Shown one piece after another: positions 504 through 38,439 of a stretch of 64,000 bases of DNA. The DNA is taken from NCBI RefSeq assembly GCF_009914755.1, contig NC_060947.1; one strand, written 5' to 3'. The notes below the pieces were generated by a model. That model worked only from the letters and a program-made list of their open reading frames with translations, did no database searches and was not told the origin of the DNA. Origin of the DNA: the human T2T-CHM13v2.0 reference genome, Homo sapiens. Both the position numbers and the translations under genes were made by a program. Each line of letters starts with the position of its first letter. Positions within the stretch are counted from its first letter, which is position 1.

Positions 504-886
504 TGGTGTTGCAATATTGATTAGACTTTGATAGATTAAGATAACATATAATTAATCCTAGTAAAGTCACTAAAGAAATTAAAAGAGGTATATCCATGAA
601 GACAATGTACAAAATAAAACGGAATGTAAAAAATTTAATTCAAGCAAAAGATGAGAAGAAAAGAGCAATAGAGGAGCAAATCAAAAAGAGATGTGCAAAG
701 TGGAAAAATATACCAGAATCACAGAATAAAATCCAATGATTTCAACAATCCCATTTAAAGTAAATTGATTAAACACTTTAATTAGAATGCAGAGATTTTC
801 AGATTTGATAAAAAATTAAGACCTAATAAGAAATTACTTATAGGAAACAAAAGAGACATTAAAGACAGAAGTAGATTGAAATTAAA

Positions 887-3128
887 TCCACATGAATATT
901 TCAACAGAGACAGAAAAGGCTTTCAATAAAATTTAACATCCCTTCATGTTAAAACTCTCACTAAAGTAGGTATTGAAAGAACATACCTCAGAATAATAAC
1001 AGCCATATATGTCAGTCCCACAGCCAACATCCTACTGAATGGGCAAAAGCTAGATGCATTCTCCTTGAAAACCCACAAAAGACAAAGATGTCCTTTCTCA
1101 CCACTCCTATTCAACATCATGTTGGAAGTACTTGGCCAGGGCAGTCAGGCAAGAGAAAGACATAAAGCGCATCCAAATAGGAAGAGAGGAAGTAAAACTA
1201 TTCCTGTTTGCAGATGATATGATTCTATACCTAGAAAACCCCATAGTCTCACCCCAAAAGCTCCTTAAGCTGACAAGCAATGGCTCAGGATATGAAATCA
1301 ATGTACAAAAATCATGATCATTCTTATACACCAATAATGGCCAAGATGAGAGCCAAATGAAGAACACAATCTCATTTGCAATTGCCACTGAAAGAATAAA
1401 ATACCTTGGAATACAGCTAACTGGAAAGGTGAAAGATTTCTACAAGCAGAACTACAAACCACTGCACAAAGAAAAAAAAAAAGCAGATGACACAAACAGA
1501 TGGAAAAAAACATTTCATGCTCATGGATGGGAAGAATCAGTATCTTTAAAATGGCCATACTGCGCAAAGCAATTTACAGATTCAACGCTATTCCTGCAAA
1601 ACTATCAAAGACGTTCTTCACAGAACTAGGAAAAACTATTTAAAAATCCATTTGGAATCAAAAGAGAGCCAAAATAGCCAAGGCAATCCTAAGCAAAAGG
1701 AAAAAAACCTGGAGGCATCACACTACCTGACTTCAAACTATACCACAGGGCTATAGCAACCAAAAGACCATGGTATTTGTACAAACACAGACACATAGAC
1801 CAATGGAACAGAATAGAGAGTCCAGAAATAAGGCCATACACCTACAGCTAGCTGATCTTGGACAAAGTTGACAAAAACAAGCAATGGTGAAAGGACTCTC
1901 TATTCTATAAATGGTGCTGGGTAACTGCCTAGTCATATGCAGAAGATTGAAATTGGGCACCTTCTTTACACCATATACAAAAATTAACTCAAGATGGATT
2001 AGAGACTAGAATGTAAAACCCAAAACTATAAAAACCCTGGAAAACAACCTAGGCAATACCATTCTGGACATAGGAATGGACAAAAATTTCATGACACAGA
2101 TGCCAAAAGCAATTGCAACGAAAGCAAAAATTAACAAGCAGGATCAAATTAAACTAAACAGTTTCTGCACAGAAAAGTAAACTATCAACAGAATAAACAG
2201 ACAACCTATAAAATGGGAGAAAATTTGTGCAAACTATGCATCTGAAAAAGGTCTAATATCCAGCATCTATAAGGAACTTAAACAAATGTATGAGAAAAAA
2301 AACAACAACCCTATTAATCAGTGGGCAAAAGACATGAACAGACACTTCCCAAAAGAAGACATACATGTGACCAACAAGCACATGAAAAACAAAGCTCAAC
2401 ATCACCGATCATTACAGAAATGCAAATCAAAACCATGATGAGATACCATCTCATGCCAGTCAGAATGGCTATGATTAAAAAGTCAAAACGTATCATATGC
2501 TGGGATGGTTTCAGAGAAAATGGAATGCTTGTGCAATGTTGGTGGGACTGTAAATTAGTTCAATCATTGAGGAAAACAGTGCGGCAATTCCTCAAAGACC
2601 TAAAAACACGACAACCACGTGACCTAGCAATTCTGTTACTAAGTATATACCCAAAGGAATATAAGTCATTCTATCAGAAAGACATATGCATACTAATGTT
2701 CACTGAAGCACTATTCATGGAATCAACCTAAATGCCAATAAATGGTAGACTGTATAAAGACGATGTGGTACACATGCACTTATGGAATACTATGCAGCCA
2801 CAAAAAGAATGAGATGATGGATGGAGCTTGGGGTCATTATCCTTAGCAAACTAAAGTAGGAACAGAAAATCAAATACCACATGTTCTCACTTATAAGTGG
2901 GAGCTAAGTAATAAGAACACATGGACACACAGAGAGGTGCAAGAGACATTGGGACCTATTGGAGGGTATAGGGTGGGAGGAGGAAGAGGATCAGGAAAAA
3001 TAACTAATGGGTACTAGGTTTAACACCTGGGTGATGAAATAATCTGTACAACAAAGCCCCATGACATGAGTTTACCTGTATAACAAGCCTGCACATGTAC
3101 CCCTAAACTTAAAATAAAAGTTAAAAAA
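887..3128 (+). mobile_element. 5'-truncated L1PA (about L1PA11-13) ORF2 3' half plus 3'UTR, nested in the L1M endonuclease region
   Basis: ORF fragments [15 protein letters not shown] and [17 protein letters not shown]...CWWDCKLV; 3' end ...cctgcacatgtacccctaaacttaaaataaaagttaaaaaa. Confidence 0.9.
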
Positions 3129-3749
3129 GGAAAATAAAATGGAATACGTACTGTGTACACAGTAAGAGTAAGAAAGCTGGAGAGGTTATGTTAAAATCTG
3201 AAAAATTAAAACAGTGTTTTACGAGATACAGAGAAAGATTTCATAGTGCTAAAATGAACAGTTCATCAGGAAGTAATAAGTCATAAACATGTATATATCT
3301 AGTAACAGAGAATTAAACTTTATAAAGCAAAAGCCGACCAAGTTAGAAGTATCAACAGTTACAATTTTGGCTAGGGATTTTTGCACCTTTCTCTCAGTAA
3401 TTGATAAAAGTAGACAAAAATCAGTAACAATATGGGAGACCTGAATAACACAGTCAAGCAAATTTAAATCAACTTTAAACTAATCAATGTTTACAGAATC
3501 CTATGTGCAATAAATGTAAACATATTCTTTCCAATTGCCCATGATACAGTCACCAAGATAGCCCATATGCTGGGCCATGAAATAACCCCAAACAATTGAC
3601 ATAGTATGTAAAATAAAGAAAATTTACAAAGGCAAAAATGGGCTCTTTGCAAAATTGCTAACCTCTTTGTAAGACTAATCAAGAAAACAAGACAAATTAC
3701 AAATATCAGGAGTTAAATTATCACACATATCCTACAAACATTAAAATAC

Positions 3750-5951
3750 TTTTAATTTGAAGATGTTCCAGATTGCCAGAGTCTTGTATGAGCAACCTAG
3801 AAAATAAACTCATCTTCAGAAAACAGTGCATATTTTGAGGACAGCAAGGCCAGACCCATTTTGTATGAGCATGCCATGGCCTGCAGCTTTTCCAGGGCCT
3901 GTAGCATCAGAATCCTATCTATAGGAACCCTTTCTGTGTTCTTGGGCCAGGTTTCAAAAATGGAAATCTGTATTTTTCATGCTACTCACTCTTGCTGAGT
4001 GAATATCCTGTTTTTTATCCCACAATCTCAGTTGCCTGCCAGAGTTAACCAAGTGATTGTATTTGCTACATTGTATCATGCAGCACATTTCTGGCACTAT
4101 AATTTTGGAGAAAGAAAAAAAAGCACTAATGAGATCTGAACAGATCCTCAACAGGCTGAAAACAAATACAAAACACGATGTATTTACTAAGAAGCTAACA
4201 GCTGTGAAATAGGTAGTGTGACCAGCATCTTTACTACTACTATTGACATAGAAACTGACGATATTCCTGAAAAACAGATGGGCTTTGTATCACTCAGGGG
4301 AGGAAGCTACACCCTAAAGGCCTTTCTAATACTGCTCCATATAGAAAATCCCCTAGAGGAGGCTTTTAGAAGGAGGAAGTGAGAATAAACTATGGCAATA
4401 GATCCCCTGCAATACAGTTCTAGAAGACTTAAAAAAATCCATTTGTATGACCTAGCCTATAGTAAAGCCATGCTAGAGAATATGGTGTAGCACAATCTAA
4501 TTTCAATGAATTCTTGTAAAAGCATGGATGTCCTCTATAAACCCTCTTGATGATGAAAACAGCGTTATATATGAAGATAAGCAAAAGACTTCTATGCTGC
4601 TGGAGCAGTATCTTGAAGTTGTCAATTACAGAGATCTTAAAGTCAGGCTTTGTCATGGAGATGAACTTGGGTAAAGAAAAGAAGAGTGCTATTCTCAAAG
4701 TCCTGTCACTTCCAGATAAAGTAAAAAAAAGGAAAAGCCAGAGATGAGGGCCAGGTGATTAAGAGCCAAAATACTCTGAAGTCAAAAGTATCCAAGTCTA
4801 CTGAAGTTGTGAACTAGCTCCATCAGGAGAGGCCATTCTGCTCCAGCATGGAAGCTGTTAACCTGAGTTTGAAATCCAAAGTCCAGAACCCTCTCAGTGA
4901 TGGGAAAAGAAAGCCAGATACCATTATTGAGTGCTATGGCTTCCCTGAGAAATGCCTTTCTTTGCCTCCCCTGTACAACTGCATTTTTGAAGGGGTCTCT
5001 TGTAATTATTAATATGAATTTGTTCCAGAAAAAGTCCCAGGATGACATCTGAGAAAATGTCTTTGAGAGATAAAGAGTCATTGCTAGACAGCAGTGTATC
5101 TGGAAAACTCAGAAGAGTACAAAGGGCTCAGAAGAAGAGGCAATCAAGAACTGAAAATATTACTCAGATAAAGAGGAAATGATCATGAAAGATGAGGTTG
5201 GGGACCATAATTATTAGAGCTTTAAAAACTGTTCAAAGATTTAAAACACTGTAAAAGTGAGGAATGTGGAAGCCCTTAATAATTCTTCAAATAGAAAGAC
5301 AACCTATTTGTTGAAGAAAGTTACTGCCTTGTACAACTTGCTCCCTGAGGATTCAAAAGACTGGGAGGTAGAAGAGGAAGCTGAAGGAAAACATGATGAT
5401 GTTTATATAACACTATGTATGAGGTATTAATAAAATGCCTCTTTCAGGAAATTGGTCTACAGGGCCCTCTGACTCCTTCCAAAAGCAGATTTCACTGAGA
5501 AGTTGGCAGGAAGATAATCTGGAAGACCCAAGAGCTCCCTCCCTCCCCACTTCATCATCTGGCCCATGAAAAATAAATACAAGTAGAAGCTTAATGTACA
5601 TAAAATCATCCCTGTGATTTACTCAGTGAAGTTACAGGGAGGCAATTAAACTACTTATGGCAAACTCTAGAAGAAACATACCATGGCCAAGCAGGAGAGA
5701 TTAGTCTAAGACACCCTTTCTCAGGTCACTGGAACATACCTCTGAAAGATAAAAAATCAAGGTGCCTCATAAGCTAACAAGAAATTCCAGGCAGTTACTG
5801 TGGAAGTTTAGAAAAATCCCAGCTGATACATAGGAAACAAACTGATGAGTTCCACATACAAAGAAGAGCTTAATATTGCATAAGCAAAATAGGAAAGAGC
5901 AGGTGATCTCTTTCTAAGTTGGAAATAATAAAATTCTGGTATACCAAAAAA
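3750..5951 (+). pseudogene. VELO1: Processed pseudogene of Velo1/Bucky ball (Xvelo/buc, BUVE-domain Balbiani body organiser)
   Basis: Collinear blocks vs recalled Xvelo: INSSSENSAY..ARPILY (3804-) ~ MNTTAPPPENGQY..PRPYFY; NPFCVLGPGFKNGNLYFSCYSLLLSEYP (3926-4009) ~ NPYCIPGPGFRGGNPYFPYYSVALHEYP; LYHAAHFWHY..STNEI*TDPQQ ~ FYHATRFRHY..ETKETQTDPRQ; KEEVRINYGNRSPAIQF (4370-4420) ~ KEEVRIEYGSGSPAAIQM; IHLYDLAYSKAMLENMV ~ IPIYDVAVVKELPENVV; TSEKMSLRDKESLLDSS (5045-5095) ~ TSEELSSRDEGSSLDSA; PEDSKDWEVEEE ~ PEDSDEYWVMEEE; KIIWK/PKSSLPPHFIIWPMK ~ KRILWKPPKGMVPAQIVGWPVK. Many stops and frameshifts, no intron-sized gaps, AATAAA at 5927-5932 and an A-tract at 5946-5951. Confidence 0.88.
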
Positions 5952-6805
5952 CAAGTTCATAAAAGATAAATGTTAAGCTTTTAAAATGTAAGTTTTAAAA
6001 CAGTAAATAAATGGAATTGGATATAAAAATAATAAGTCAACATTATATGAATGTTATATCATACATTTCATTATTTAGTTGAAATTGGTCATTTTCTTTT
6101 AAATCACAGTTAAATCACATGAAATGAAAATAAACTTCTGAAACCTGATAAAGAATATTAATGAAAAACATATAGTTCCCATAATCGCTAATAGTCAATG
6201 ACTGACTGTTTTCTCCCTAAGATCAGTGACTAAGCCAAGAGGTCACTCTATTTACCTTCACTCTTTTACTGGTAATAGTAGCTAGTTTAATAAGGCAAGA
6301 CAAAGGGCATAATGTGTGAATGTAAATAATTATATGGTTTCTATTTCCAGAATATGTGATTTCCTATGTAGAAAATGAAAAATACCAGAATTGAAAATGA
6401 TTTTGGAAGGCCAGACGATGCAAGTTAAATATATAAAAAGTGATTAAATTCCCATACATAAGTGATAAAAGATTCAAATAGATTTAAAAAATACAATGTA
6501 TGATAGCATCAAAAATAATTAACCAAATATGAGCACTATCAGTAAACTGAAAACTACAATGTTGCTGAAGATAGTTAATGAATACTTAAAATAACTGTCA
6601 GGCATATACTATGCTGATAGATTGCAAGAGTCAATATTATTAAGGTGAAGTATTTTGTATATTGTCAATGCAATTCCAATAAAAAATCAAGCAACCTGAT
6701 TCTAAAATCTATATAGAAATAAAACGGATCTATGAGAGACAAAATTGTTTTGAAAGAGAACAAGTTAGAGCAGTTTACTCTCTTATATCAAGGATTACTC
6801 TAAAA

Positions 6806-30325: not shown

Positions 30326-30822
30326 GAGAGGATAGCAACAAGACAATGATTCCCACTCTCACCACTCCTATTCAACATAGTACTGGAAGTCTTCGCCAGA
30401 GTATCAGGCAAGAAAAATAAATAAAAGGCATCCAAATTGAAAAAGAAGAAGTGAAATTATCTCTCTTCACAGGTGATGTGATTCCATATCTAAAAAAGCT
30501 CTGAGGACTCCGCAAAAAGGCTTTTGGAGCTGACAAATGATGGCAGTAAAGTTTTAGGATACAAAAATCAATGTACAAAAATCAGTAGCATTTCTATACA
30601 CTAATAACGTTCAAGCTGAAAGCGAAATCAAGAACATAATCCCATTTACAATAACCACAATAAAATAAAATACCTGGGAAGACATCTAACCGAGAAGTTG
30701 AAAGGTCTCTACAAGGAAAATGACATAATACTGCTGAAATAAATTATAGATGACACAAACGAATGGAAAAACATTCAGTGCTCTTGGATCAGAAGAATCA
30801 GTATCGTTAAAATACGAAAACT

Positions 30823-31727
30823 GAGGGAGGAGCCAAGATGGCCGAATAGGAACAGCTCCGGTCTACAGCTCCCAGCATGAGCAACACAGAAGACGGGTGA
30901 TTTCTGCATTTCCATCTGAGGTACCGGGTTCATCTCACTAGGGAGTGCCAGACAGTGGGCACAGGCCAGTGGGTGCACGCACCGTGCGCGAGCCGAAGCA
31001 GGGCGAGGCATTGCCTCACCTGGGAAGTGCAAGGGGTCAGGGAGTTCCCTTTCCGAGTCAAAGAAAGGGGTGACGGACGCACCTGGAAAATCAGGTCACT
31101 CCCACCCAAATACTGCGCTTTTCTGACTGACTTAAAAAACGGCGCACCACGAGATTATATCCCACACCTGGCTCGGAGGGTCCTACGCCCACGGAATCTC
31201 ACTGATTGCTAGCACAGCAGTCTGAGATCAAACTGCAAGGCAGCAGCCAGGCTGGGGGAGGGGCGCCCGCCATTGCCCAGGCTTGATTAGGTAAACAAAG
31301 CAGCGGGAAGCTCCAACTGGGTGGAGCCCACCACAGCTCAAGGAGGCCTGCCTGCCTCTGTAGGCTCCACCTCTGGGGGCAGGGCACAGACAAACAAAAA
31401 GACAGCAGTAACCTCTGCAGACTTAAATGTCCCTGTCTGACAGCTTTGAAGAGAGCAGTGGCTCTCCCAGCACGCAGCTGGAGATCTGAGAACCGGCAGA
31501 CTGCCTCCTCAAGTGGGTTCCTGACCCCTGACCCCCGAGCAGCCTAACTGGGAGGCACCCCCCAGCAGGAGCACACTGACACCTCACACGGCAGGGTATT
31601 CCAACAGACCTGCAGCTGAGGGTCCTGTCTCTTAGAAGGAAAACTAACAAACAGAAAGGACATCCACACCGAAAACCCATCTGTACATCACCATCATCAA
31701 AGACCAAAAGTAGATAAAACCACAAAG
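30823..31727 (+). promoter_or_regulatory. L1 5'UTR internal sense/antisense promoter with YY1 site
   Basis: YY1 motif aagatggcc at 30835-30843; CpG-rich UTR; ORF0 ATG on the minus strand at 31273. Confidence 0.85.
31199..31273 (-). pseudogene. L1 ORF0, truncated after 24 codons
   Basis: MAGAPPPAWLLPCSLISDCCASNQ*; the stop falls where the 71-aa ORF0 consensus continues with R (CGA>TGA). Confidence 0.8.
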
Positions 31728-32744
31728 ATGGGGAAAAAACAGAACAGAAAAACTGGAAACTCTAAAATGCAGAGCGTCTCTCCTCCTCCAAAGGAACACA
31801 GTTCCTCACCAGCAACGGAACAAAGCTGGATGGAGAATGACTTTGACGAGCTGAGAGAAGAAGGCTTCAGACGAACAAATTACTCTGAGCTACGGGAGGA
31901 CATTCAAACCAAAGGCAAAGAAGTTGAAAACTTTGAAAAAAATTTAGAAGAATGTATAACTAGAATAACCAATACAGAGAAGTGCTTAAAGGAGCTGATG
32001 GAGCTGAAAACCAAGGCTCGAGAACTACGTGAACAATGCAGAAGCCTCAGGAGCCGATGCGATCAACTGGAAGAAAGGGTATCAGCAATGGAAGATGAAA
32101 TGAATGAAATGAAGCGAGAAGGGAAGTTTAGAGAAAAACGAATAAAAAGAAATGAGCAAAGCCTCCAAGAAATATGGGACTCTGTGAAAAGACCAAATCT
32201 ACGTCTGATTGGTGTACCTGAAAGTGATGGGGAGAATGGAACCAAGTTGGAAAACACTCTGCAGGATATTATCCAGGAGAACTTCCCCAGTCTAGCAAGG
32301 CAGGCCAACGTTCAGATTCAGGAAATACAGAGAACACCACAAAGATACTCCTCGAGAAGAGCAACTCCAAGACACATAATTGTCAGATTCACCAAAGTTG
32401 AAATGAAGGAAAAAATGTTAAGGGCAGCCAGAGAGAAAGGTCGGGTTACCCTCAAAGGGAAGCCCATCAGACTAACAGCGGATCTCTCAGCAGAAACCCT
32501 ACAAGCCAGAAGAGAGTGGGGGCCAATATTCAACATTCTTAAAGAAAAGAATTTTCAACCCAGAATTTCATATCCAGCCAAACTAAGCTTCATAAGTGAA
32601 GGAGAAATAAAATACTTTACAGACAAGCAAATGCTGAGAGATTTTGTCACCATCAGGCCTGCCCTAAAAGAGCTCCTGAAGGAAGCGCTAAACATGGAAA
32701 GGCACAACCGGTACCAGCCGCTGCAAAATCATGCCAAAATGTAA
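31728..32744 (+). CDS. LINE-1 ORF1p (338 aa, intact RNA-binding/chaperone protein)
   Basis: MGKKQNRKTGNSK...; REKG, ARR and YPAKLS motifs retained; canonical length. Confidence 0.97.
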   Translation: MGKKQNRKTGNSKMQSVSPPPKEHSSSPATEQSWMENDFDELREEGFRRTNYSELREDIQTKGKEVENFEKNLEECITRITNTEKCLKELMELKTKARELREQCRSLRSRCDQLEERVSAMEDEMNEMKREGKFREKRIKRNEQSLQEIWDSVKRPNLRLIGVPESDGENGTKLENTLQDIIQENFPSLARQANVQIQEIQRTPQRYSSRRATPRHIIVRFTKVEMKEKMLRAAREKGRVTLKGKPIRLTADLSAETLQARREWGPIFNILKEKNFQPRISYPAKLSFISEGEIKYFTDKQMLRDFVTIRPALKELLKEALNMERHNRYQPLQNHAKM

Positions 32745-32780
32745 AGACCATCGAGACTAGGAAGAAACTGCATCAACTAA

Positions 32781-36635
<3,855 letters not shown>

Positions 36636-38439
36636 ACAATGAGATCACATGGACACAGGAAGGGGAATATCACACTCTGGGGACTGTGGTGGGGTGGGGG
36701 GATGGGGGAGGGATAGCATTGGGAGATATACCTAATGCTAGATGACGAGTTAGTGGGTGCAGCACACCAGCATGGCACATGTATACATATGTAACTAACC
36801 TGCACAATGTGCACATGTACCCTAAAACTTAAAGTATAATAAAAAAAAAAATACGAAAACTACCTAAAACAATCTACATATTTAGCATTACTCCTATCAA
36901 GCTACCAATTTCAGTCTTCACAGAATTAGGGAAAAAAACCTATTCTGAAATTCATATGGAACCAAAAGAGAGCTCGAGTAGCCAAAGCAGTCTTAAGGAA
37001 AAAGAACAAAGCTAGAGGCGTCACATTACCCAACTTCAAACTATACTATCAGGCTACAGTACCAAAATCAACATGGTACTGGTATAAAAACAGACACATA
37101 GACCAATGGAACAAAATAGAGAACTTAGACATAAAGCTGCATACCTACGACCATCTGATCTTTGACAAAGTTGACAAAAATAAACAATGGGGAAAGGACT
37201 CCCAATTCAATAAATGGTGGTGGGATAACTGGCTAGCCATATGAACAAGAATGAAACTGGACCCCTACTTTCATCATATACAGTAATTAACTCAAAGTAG
37301 ATTAAAGACTTAAATGTAAAACCTAAAACTATAAAAACCCTGAAAGACAACCTAGGCAATAAATACCCTTCTCTACATCAGCCTTGGCAAATAATTTATG
37401 GCCAAGTCCTCAAAAGCAATTGCAACAAAAACCAAAAATTGACAAGTGGGACCTAATGAAACTAAAGAGCTTCTGCATATCAAAATAAATTATCAACAGA
37501 GTAAACAATCTATAAACTGGAAGAAAATATTCATAAACCATGCATCTGACAAAGATCTAATATCCAGAATCTATGAGAAACTTAAATAAACAAGTAAAAA
37601 ACAAACAACCCCATTAATAAACTGGCAAAGGACATGAACAGATACTTCTCAAAAGAGGACATACAAGCCACCAACAAACATGAAAAAAATGCTCAATATC
37701 TCTAATCATCAGATAAATTCAAATCAATATGGCAATGAAATACCATCTGACAAAAAGTCAAAAAACAACAAATGATGGCAAAGCCATGGAGAGAAGAGAT
37801 ATAAATTAGTTGATGGGAATGTAAATTAGTTCAGCCACTGTGGAAAGCAGTTTGGAAATTTCTCAAAGAATTTAATACAGAACTACCATTAGACCCAGCA
37901 ATCCCATTATTGGGTATATATCCAAAAGAAAACAAGTCATTCTACCAAAAAGCCACATTCACTCACATGTTCATCACAGCACTATTCACAATAGCAAAGA
38001 AATGGAATCAACCTAGGAACTCATCAATGGTGGATTGGATGAAGAAAATACACCATGGGCTACTACGCAGCCAAGACAAAGAATGAAATAAAATTCTTTG
38101 AAACAACGTGGATTCAGCTGCAGGCTATTATGCTAAGCAATTTAATGCAGGAGCAGAAAACCAAATGCCCCATGTTTTCACTCATAAGTGGAAGCTAAAC
38201 ATTAAGCACACATGGATATAAAGATGGAAGCAGTGGATACTGGGGATGCTAGAGGAACCAGGGAGGGAGGGGGTGTGGGCTGAGTGACTACCTATTGGGT
38301 TCTGTGCTCACTGCCTGGATGACAGGATCATATGTACTCTAAACTTCAGTGTCATGTAATGTTCCCATGTGACAGACCTAGGCATGTACCCCCGACTCAG
38401 ATAAAAGTTGAAATTTAAAAAAAATCAATAAATCTATCT

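What the first reader, a model, noticed from the sequence alone, without database searches (positions are those of the whole stretch)
3750..5951. Fossil retrocopy of the Balbiani-body/germ-plasm organiser Velo1/Bucky ball in a primate genome
Seen in the sequence: a 2.2-kb non-repeat insert that interrupts an L1M ORF2, which resumes collinearly afterwards. It has no long ORF, but its frames join into ~700 codons. Against Xenopus Xvelo as I recall it, at least eight ordered blocks match: start region at 3804 (aaaATA where the ATG is expected), NPFCVLGPGFKNGNLYFSCYSLLLSEYP (3926-4009), YHAAHFWHY and EI*TDPQQ (to 4154), KEEVRINYGNRSPAIQF (4370-4420), IHLYDLAYSKAMLENMV (4437-4487), TSEKMSLRDKESLLDSS (5045-5095), PEDSKDWEVEEE (5344-5379), and KIIWK..PKSSLPPHFIIWPMK (5511-5571). 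Established: Xvelo and Buc build the amyloid-like Balbiani body matrix and germ plasm in frog and fish oocytes; placental mammals specify germ cells by induction and lack a recognised functional orthologue. Inference: an intronless, polyadenylated copy means a spliced Velo1 mRNA was present in the germline of a mammalian ancestor after the host L1M inserted, so this is a near full-length snapshot of the lost mammalian gene. I recall disrupted BUVE-like human loci being mentioned in the bucky ball literature, so whether this copy is new must be checked.
Basis: partly seen in the sequence, partly recalled or inferred. Interest (0 to 1): 0.95.

Follow-up and report, generated by a model that had tools for sequence, protein, structure and literature searches.

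The report
Dead retrocopy of Bucky ball/Velo1
This stretch of the human X chromosome is a long-dead, intron-free copy of the messenger RNA of Bucky ball/Velo1, the gene that builds the Balbiani body in fish and frog eggs, and it is one of four such fossil copies in the human genome.

Summary
Window ~3770-6035 (+) is a full-length, decayed copy of a eutherian Bucky ball (Buc/Velo1) mRNA lying inside an old L1 ORF2.

- Homology: a frameshift-aware alignment to an intact felid Buc (723 aa) runs from residue 1 (ATA at 3804 in place of ATG) to residue 722 (window 5842). It has 632 codons, 46% identity, 17 stops and 12 frameshifts, and scores 749 against 33-51 for controls. Xenopus laevis Velo1 itself matches at E 8e-17.
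- Corrections: the 3' end is ~6035, after AATAAA at 6006-6011, not 5951. About 0.5 kb of the L1 ORF2 is missing at the junction, and I found no target-site duplication. Intact Buc reading frames are predicted in many placentals, so "lost in mammals" is wrong.
- Three more copies exist, on chr5 (full length), chr15 and chr12 (both 5'-truncated). All four end at the same poly-A site. The chr5 copy is the published "single primate buc pseudogene" and looks like a retrocopy too (A10 tail, 9-bp duplication).
- Nothing Buc-like turned up on chr7, where the gene should lie.
- A tree and a repeat-unit count make the chrX copy the earliest branching.

It is an ordinary kind of element, derived from a notable gene, and neither RefSeq nor the 2016 paper reports this copy.

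The parts
3077..3707 (+). 5' part of the host: an old L1 ORF2 (about aa 40-390 on the ruler of the window's own young L1)
   Evidence: tblastn and frameshift-aware alignment to the ORF2 of the L1 at 30821-36863. The last anchored stretch is aa 372-390 at 3651-3707.
3770..3803 (+). Remnant of the Buc 5' UTR; approximate 5' end of the retrocopy
   Evidence: Alignment with the chr5 copy becomes recognisable about 35 bp before the start codon. BLAST homology starts at 3781.
3804..5845 (+). Decayed Buc/Velo1 coding sequence, about 680 codons. ATA stands at 3804-3806 where ATG is expected. There are 17 in-frame stops and 12 frameshifts. TGA at 5843-5845 follows the codon aligned to residue 722 of 723.
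   Evidence: Frameshift-aware alignment to P0006, controls and tblastn.
3908..4220 (+). N-terminal conserved region (the BUVE motif of the literature), with one frameshift near 4010
   Evidence: Xenopus laevis Velo1 aa 33-146 aligns here, at 51% and 32% identity in two frames, joint E 7.7e-17.
4388..4393 (+). Position matching the inferred exon junction between codons 190 and 191 of felid Buc; contiguous here
   Evidence: Felid isoform P0011 equals P0006 residues 1-190 joined to residue 502 onward. The mapping uses the alignment path. A second inferred junction lies near 5130 and a third at 3950/3953.
4920..5128 (+). Short middle region with room for at most one 'WLAQ..IQCD' repeat unit (about 69 codons)
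   Evidence: The unit HMM finds 1 unit in marsupials and manatee, 2-5 in the 13 full-length Laurasiatherian proteins, 2 in the chr5 copy and none scoring in chrX. Alignment.
5846..6011 (+). 3' UTR, with a proximal AATAAA at 5927-5932 (apparently not the site used) and the distal AATAAA at 6006-6011
   Evidence: Four-copy alignment of 3' ends; sequence.
6025..6035 (+). A-rich remnant of the poly-A tail (aaaaataataa); 3' end of the retrocopy
   Evidence: Homology among the chrX, chr5, chr15 and chr12 copies stops here. The chr5 copy has A10 and the chr12 copy A6 at the matching place.
6145..6376 (+). The host L1 ORF2 resumes (ruler aa 629-710). Further collinear pieces reach about 9170.

Best explanation
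Window ~3770-6035 is a processed pseudogene. A spliced, polyadenylated Bucky ball (Buc/Velo1) mRNA of an early placental ancestor was reverse-transcribed and inserted into an already resident L1 on what is now the X chromosome. The L1 machinery is presumed to have done this; that step is not shown. The copy never had a promoter of its own, or lost any use, and it has decayed neutrally ever since: the start codon is lost, and it carries 17 stops, 12 frameshifts and almost no CpG. It has no function today.

It is one of at least four independent retrocopies of the same mRNA in the human genome (chrX, chr5, chr15, chr12). Because retrocopies are inherited only if made in the germ line or early embryo, these four copies are indirect evidence that Buc mRNA was present there in early placentals.

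Shown: homology, collinearity, decay, the shared 3' end, and location inside an L1.
Inferred: intron loss (from isoform break points, not from a genomic gene model), the L1 machinery as the agent, and the age.
For: Homology
- HMMER over 1.84 billion proteins with a read-through of 3999-4550 found 13 of the library's proteins at E<=1e-3. Two are ORF calls of this very locus; the rest are Buc-type proteins.
- UniRef calls the pig, gray whale, tortoise and alligator members 'Bucky ball', and P0148 is 'velo1 L homeolog [Xenopus laevis]'.
- End-to-end alignment. Controls.

Retrocopy hallmarks
- The copy is contiguous over the isoform break points.
- All four copies end at one site after AATAAA, followed by A-rich runs.
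- The chr15 copy starts at window-equivalent 5135 and the chr12 copy at 5581, the usual 5' truncation.
- Flanks of the copies are unrelated.
- The chr5 sibling has an A10 tail directly followed by a 9-bp direct repeat of its 5' flank.
- The copy interrupts an L1 ORF2.
- Zebrafish buc has introns (PMC6049948, passage), and chicken Buc was amplified with intron-spanning primers (PMC9546911, passage).

Age and origin
- In the careful ML tree of 33 rows, the three human copies long enough to place fall inside the eutherian clade (100/100) and outside Laurasiatheria (99/98). chrX sits in the basal polytomy with manatee.
- K2P distances between copies are 0.33-0.48. The chrX copy has 3 CpG in 2267 bp.
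Against: - No target-site duplication was found for the chrX copy. The best direct repeat is an 8-mer that abuts neither end.
- Its poly-A is only an A-rich 11-mer.
- About 0.5 kb of the host L1 ORF2 is missing at the junction. The insertion was therefore not a clean cut-and-paste, or a deletion followed it.
- No genomic exon map of any Buc gene was available. Intron loss rests on one exon-skipping isoform (P0011), one odd manatee model (P0003) and statements about fish and chicken.
- The tree places long, oddly composed pseudogene rows, and the tool itself warns about them.
Confidence: 0.9

Rival explanations
1. The chrX segment is a DNA-level (segmental) duplicate of another Buc pseudogene, such as the chr5 one, and not an independent retroposition.
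For: The chrX and chr5 copies are collinear over the whole mRNA length. The chrX copy has no target-site duplication.
Against: - Homology stops at the mRNA ends, and 1.4-1.5 kb of flank held on each side of the chr5, chr15 and chr12 copies does not align.
- The chr5 copy has its own tail and 9-bp duplication.
- The copies are not one clade in the tree.
- They differ in repeat-unit number.
- The K2P distance of 0.43 is as large as between any other pair.
Confidence: 0.04
2. The segment is a member of a low-copy interspersed repeat family that only resembles Buc, or it is a chance or low-complexity match.
For: There are four dispersed copies at 64-74% identity with shared 3' ends, as for LINE-like repeats. 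Pfam finds no family in any frame piece.
Against: - The alignment to intact Buc proteins of 30 vertebrates runs end to end, start codon and C-terminus included.
- Controls score 33-51 against 749.
- Four genome-wide protein searches found no further copies.
Confidence: 0.01
3. The copy was once a working retrogene, or is still a transcribed non-coding RNA, and not dead on arrival.
For: It is full length with part of the 5' UTR. By score it is the best preserved of the four copies: E 1e-38 with manatee Buc against 2e-14 for chr5. Its end branch in the tree is 0.52 against 0.85 for chr5.
Against: - It carries 17 stops, 12 frameshifts and a lost start codon.
- CpG observed/expected is 0.04.
- RefSeq annotates no gene or functional element in the window (hub's note).
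- No test of past selection was possible, because I had no orthologues from other species.
Confidence: 0.05

Closest known systems
The 'single primate buc pseudogene' of Skugor et al. 2016 (BMC Evol Biol 16:232, PMC5080839, Additional file 2)
   Same: It derives from the same parent mRNA. It is full length, intronless and decayed. The human sequence printed in that file reads the same as the chr5 copy found here at C5:129.6865-129.6889 Mb (one search compared by eye).
   Different: - It lies on a different chromosome and arose from an independent insertion.
- K2P distance to the chrX copy is 0.43.
- The chr5 copy keeps ATG, an A10 tail, a 9-bp duplication and two repeat units.
- The chrX copy has ATA, one unit at most, and sits inside an L1.
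- In the passages I read, the paper treats the primate sequence as the gene itself and gives no chromosome. It does not mention chrX, chr15 or chr12.
Intact eutherian Bucky ball genes (e.g. Neofelis nebulosa LOC131509158, dog LOC100686198, ferret LOC101694066)
   Same: The chrX copy is 46% identical over 632 aligned codons, from the first to the last-but-one residue, and shares the N-terminal motif and the C-terminal 'KVP.K' end.
   Different: Those have open reading frames, are predicted with several isoforms (so they have several exons), and carry 2-5 middle repeat units. Their function in mammals is untested as far as I read.
Xenopus laevis Velo1 / zebrafish Bucky ball
   Same: The N-terminal third is recognisably the same (E 7.7e-17). 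By the literature, this is the region that drives Balbiani-body matrix assembly; that point is recalled, not read here.
   Different: The rest of the frog protein does not align to the window by tblastn. The frog and fish genes work, whereas this is a fossil.
Orphan retrocopies (retrocopies whose parent gene has since been lost from the same genome)
   Same: No intron-bearing parent was found in the human genome.
   Different: Loss of the parent from 7p14.3 is not proven here. Only 70 kb of that region was compared directly, and the genome-wide searches are heuristic.

Membership tests
Buc/Velo1 (BUVE-motif) protein family | Conserved N-terminal motif shared by fish Buc and frog Velo1 | tested here: met
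   Xenopus laevis Velo1 aa 33-146 and 175-222 align to 3908-4429 at E 7.7e-17. P0006 aa 1-100 also aligns.
Buc/Velo1 (BUVE-motif) protein family | Collinear homology over the rest of the protein to amniote members | tested here: met
   P0006 aa 1-722 aligns to 3804-5842. Opossum P0008 aa 14-641 aligns. In the tree the copy falls inside the eutherian clade at 100/100.
Buc/Velo1 (BUVE-motif) protein family | Open reading frame (a working member) | tested here: not met
   17 stops, 12 frameshifts, and ATA in place of ATG. It is a pseudogene of the family, not a working member.
Buc/Velo1 (BUVE-motif) protein family | Position next to KBTBD2-AVL9-LSM5 (the synteny given in PMC5080839) | tested here: not met
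   The window is on chrX, whereas AVL9 lies at C7:32.68-32.71 Mb. This is as expected for a retrocopy.
Processed pseudogene (L1-mediated retrocopy) | Lacks the parent's introns | tested here: inconclusive
   The copy is contiguous over three break points inferred from predicted isoforms and models. Introns are stated for zebrafish and chicken. No genomic exon map of a Buc gene could be fetched.
Processed pseudogene (L1-mediated retrocopy) | Ends in a poly-A tail just after a polyadenylation signal | tested here: met
   AATAAA at 6006-6011 is followed 13 bp later by aaaaataataa. The three sibling copies end at the same place. The tail itself is short and decayed.
Processed pseudogene (L1-mediated retrocopy) | Flanking target-site duplication | tested here: not met
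   No repeat abuts both ends. The best is an 8-mer at 3711 and 6108. The host L1 lacks about 0.5 kb at the junction. The chr5 sibling does have a 9-bp duplication.
Processed pseudogene (L1-mediated retrocopy) | Inserted at a site unrelated to the parent locus; sibling copies 5'-truncated with a common 3' end | tested here: met

The most novel reading that the evidence does not exclude
The human genome keeps no trace of the Buc gene at its ancestral 7p14.3 place. All that is left are four Cretaceous retrocopies, so the sequence published as 'the primate buc pseudogene' is itself a retrocopy on chr5.

The chrX copy is the oldest and best preserved of the four. It was made before the middle 'WLAQ..IQCD' unit was duplicated in the line leading to Boreoeutheria, and so it records the Buc mRNA of a stem or very early crown placental.

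Four heritable retrocopies of one mRNA would mean that Buc was abundantly expressed in the germ line of early placentals. That is after the usual dating of the switch to inductive germ-cell specification, and it would fit a conserved role in the oocyte Balbiani body rather than in germ plasm.
Probability: 0.45. Interest if true: 0.65.

Novelty: new member of a known kind. Interest (0 to 1): 0.45.

Why it matters
Processed pseudogenes are common, and this one does nothing today. Its value is as a dated fossil of a gene that specialists care about.

- It changes the published picture from 'primates have a single buc pseudogene' to four retrocopies with no detected parent.
- It gives a near-complete, independently decaying record of an early placental Buc mRNA, which could sharpen reconstruction of the ancestral mammalian protein.
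- Repeated retroposition argues that Buc mRNA was present in the germ line of early placentals. This bears on whether mammalian Balbiani bodies once used, or in some orders still use, a Buc-type organiser.
- Pseudogene pipelines that start from human proteins cannot find copies of a gene that humans lack. That probably explains why RefSeq annotates nothing here.

Tried and rejected
- Pfam scan of 12 frame pieces: no family. Only three weak chance hits at E 0.027-0.15, all below cut-off. Pfam seems to hold no Buc/Velo family.
- Word-indexed protein search with a 93-aa piece of the chr5 copy, 'longer' lengths: nothing. The full HMMER search later succeeded.
- Genome search with the 47-aa window piece found only itself. 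Two chr5 pieces found only chr5 and chrX.
- Parent locus: one DNA search and four protein searches of the whole assembly gave no chr7 hit. One search ran with a stricter first look.
- A 70-kb fetch, C7:33,075,001-33,145,000, had no Buc signal. I take this to be the KBTBD2-FKBP9 interval, from recalled hg38 positions plus the 187-kb offset seen for AVL9. The best E was 0.31 with 12 query proteins. The AVL9-KBTBD2 interval itself was not compared directly.
- Target-site duplication for chrX, chr15 and chr12: none convincing.
- A regular expression for the repeat unit was too crude and was replaced by an HMM.
- Literature: of 719 papers holding at least 2 of 'bucky ball', retrogene, retrocopy, processed pseudogene and retrotransposed, the 20 listed all had 0 occurrences of 'bucky ball'.
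- 36 papers hold both 'bucky ball' and a word beginning 'retro'. None of the 25 listed titles concerns Buc retrocopies. I did not open them.
- PMC6219760 has no passage on mammalian buc. Heim et al. 2014 and Bontems et al. 2009 were not held or not found. What they say about human loci is therefore unchecked.

Full report
**What is in the sequence**

The stretch 3750-5951 has no open frame longer than 111 codons, and Pfam recognises nothing in its frame pieces. It is not unique in the genome. A DNA search of the window's own assembly found diverged, collinear relatives on three other chromosomes, which local BLAST refined:

| Copy | Window-equivalent span | Identity |
|---|---|---|
| chr5 | 3781-4917 and 5035-6007 | 66% and 64% |
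| chr15 | 5135-6035 | 66% |
| chr12 | 5581-5734 and 5834-6032 | 70% |

The chr5 copy has about 260 bp extra between its two aligned blocks. The flanks of the copies do not align.

**Identity**

Skugor et al. 2016 (PMC5080839; passages, section 14 and Additional files 1-3 read) print the start of the 'primate buc pseudogene' beside ferret Buc.
- The human line reads the same as the chr5 copy found here (by eye).
- The ferret N-terminus matches window 3804 onward.

I did not type those sequences. Instead I sent a read-through of window 3999-4550 (stops as X) to the HMMER search of 1.84 billion representatives.
- 13 proteins reached E<=1e-3.
- Two are 54-residue ORF calls of this very locus, at 100% and 90% identity.
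- The others are proteins of 90-920 residues.

Two word-indexed searches named these proteins and added relatives.
- They include clouded leopard LOC131509158 (P0006, 723 aa), dog, ferret, horse, camel, pig, yak, whales, bats, pangolins, manatee, opossum and other marsupials, birds, turtles, crocodilians, squamates and amphibians.
- UniRef names several of them 'Bucky ball'.
- P0148 is 'velo1 protein L homeolog [Xenopus laevis]'.

**Strength of the match**

tblastn against the whole 64-kb window gave these results:

| Query | Result |
|---|---|
| P0006 (Neofelis) | aa 1-363, 497-661 and 677-722 hit 3804-4946, 5119-5643 and 5705-5842; E about 1e-26 |
| Manatee P0003 | E 4e-41 |
| Xenopus Velo1 (P0148) | three collinear matches, E 7.7e-17 |
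| Seven reversed proteins | no better than E 0.92 |

A frameshift-aware dynamic-programming alignment that I wrote gives one path from residue 1 to 722.
- It has 632 aligned codons, of which 288 are identical (46%), with 17 in-frame stops and 12 frameshifts.
- It scores 749.
- Controls scored 34-51 for ten shuffles, 41 for the reversed protein, 33 for the minus strand and 46 for another window stretch.
- The first codon is ATA at 3804. A TGA at 5843-5845 follows the codon aligned to the last-but-one residue.

**Why a retrocopy**

1. All four human copies stop at the same point, just after AATAAA (window 6006-6011), and are followed by A-rich runs. These are aaaaataataa in chrX, A10 in chr5 and A6 in chr12. 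The true 3' end is therefore about 6035, not 5951.
2. Two siblings are 5'-truncated but share that 3' end.
3. The chr5 sibling has a 9-bp direct repeat. One copy lies directly after its A10 tail and the other about 75 bp before its ATG.
4. The felid isoform P0011 equals P0006 residues 1-190 joined to residue 502 onward. A manatee model begins its Buc part at residue 49. If these are exon borders, they fall at window 3950/3953, 4388/4391 and about 5130, where the window sequence runs on without a break. Zebrafish buc is said to have introns (PMC6049948, passage), and chicken Buc was amplified with intron-spanning primers (PMC9546911, passage). I could not fetch a genomic exon map, so intron loss is inferred, not shown.
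5. The copy lies inside an old L1 ORF2 on the same strand. On the ruler of the window's own young L1, aa 372-390 lie at 3651-3707 and aa 629-710 at 6145-6376.

Against a textbook insertion, I found no target-site duplication for chrX. About 238 codons of ORF2 separate the two L1 anchors, while only about 170 bp of unassigned flank remain.

**Where the parent is**

The literature places buc next to KBTBD2-AVL9-LSM5 (PMC5080839), which by my own knowledge is human 7p14.3. AVL9 lies at C7:32.68-32.71 Mb in this assembly.
- Four genome-wide protein searches found only chrX, chr5 and chr15. The queries were full P0006 under a stricter first look, its two ends, and manatee P0003.
- The DNA search added chr12.
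- A 70-kb fetch of what I take to be the KBTBD2-FKBP9 interval had no signal. The best E was 0.31 with 12 query proteins.

The parent is therefore undetected, but its absence is not proven.

**Age and order**

In a careful maximum-likelihood tree (33 rows, 763 columns; the chr12 copy was left out as too short), the results were as follows:
- The three human copies lie inside the eutherian clade (100/100) and outside Laurasiatheria (99/98).
- chrX sits in the basal polytomy with manatee.
- chr5 and chr15 are successive sisters of Laurasiatheria (92/88 and 81/50).
- The tool warns that these rows are long and oddly composed.

A separate character agrees with this order. An HMM of the middle 'WLAQ..IQCD' unit counts as follows:

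| Group | Units found |
|---|---|
| Marsupials, manatee (a truncated model), sauropsids, amphibians | 1 |
| 13 full-length Laurasiatherian proteins | 2-5 |
| Two bat models (truncated) | 1 |
| chr5 copy | 2 |
| chrX copy | none scoring; room for one at most |

Other age indicators:
- K2P distances between copies are 0.33-0.48.
- The chrX copy has 3 CpG in 2267 bp.
- With a neutral rate near 2e-9 per site per year (recalled), each copy is roughly 80-110 million years old.

**Verdict**

The element is an ordinary processed pseudogene with no present function.

What is new, as far as the searchable literature and the RefSeq table given with the finding go:
- The chrX copy itself, together with the chr15 and chr12 fragments.
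- The reading that the published primate pseudogene is also a retrocopy.

Noticed in passing
L002 (G000:C5:129686284-129690403), minus strand: The chr5 Buc copy reads the same as the human sequence printed as 'the single primate buc pseudogene' (PMC5080839, Additional file 2). It has an A10 tail followed by a 9-bp repeat of its 5' flank, so it looks like a retrocopy and not the syntenic gene.
   Followed up: partly
L003 (G000:C15:46485383-46489071) and L006 (G000:C12:115259960-115263059): Two further 5'-truncated Buc retrocopy fragments. The chr15 one covers the last ~225 codons plus the 3' UTR. The chr12 one covers ~45 codons plus the 3' UTR.
   Followed up: partly
proteins P0002 and P0005: Two 54-residue 'proteins' in the public library are ORF calls from this dead locus. 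One is identical to the window. The other is 90% identical and comes from another genome, which hints that an orthologous copy exists in at least one other species.
   Followed up: no
proteins P0007, P0039, P0082: Some Buc homologues carry plainly wrong names in their source records: 'Sodium-Dependent Proline Transporter' and '2-Aminomuconic Semialdehyde Dehydrogenase' in Manis pentadactyla, and 'enolase-phosphatase E1-like' in a hummingbird.
   Followed up: no
protein P0003 (manatee): The model starts with a motif that is C-terminal in other Buc proteins (MAKQE..SKRASH..LE) joined to the second part of the N-terminal motif. It looks like a mis-spliced model across tandem gene copies.
   Followed up: no
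proteins: The middle 'WLAQ..IQCD' unit varies from 1 copy (marsupials, manatee) to 5 copies (Chinese pangolin, 920 aa). This is a lineage-specific tandem expansion inside an intrinsically disordered protein.
   Followed up: partly
window 858-2904 (+): The 3' part of a younger L1 (ORF2 from about aa 580 to the end), 47-56% identical in protein to the window's young L1. It lies directly upstream of the old L1 that hosts the Buc copy.
   Followed up: no
window 30821-36863 (+): A full-length young L1. The frame holding ORF1 is open for 374 codons, and ORF2 is broken by a single stop into 494 + 789 codons. It was used here only as a coordinate ruler.
   Followed up: no
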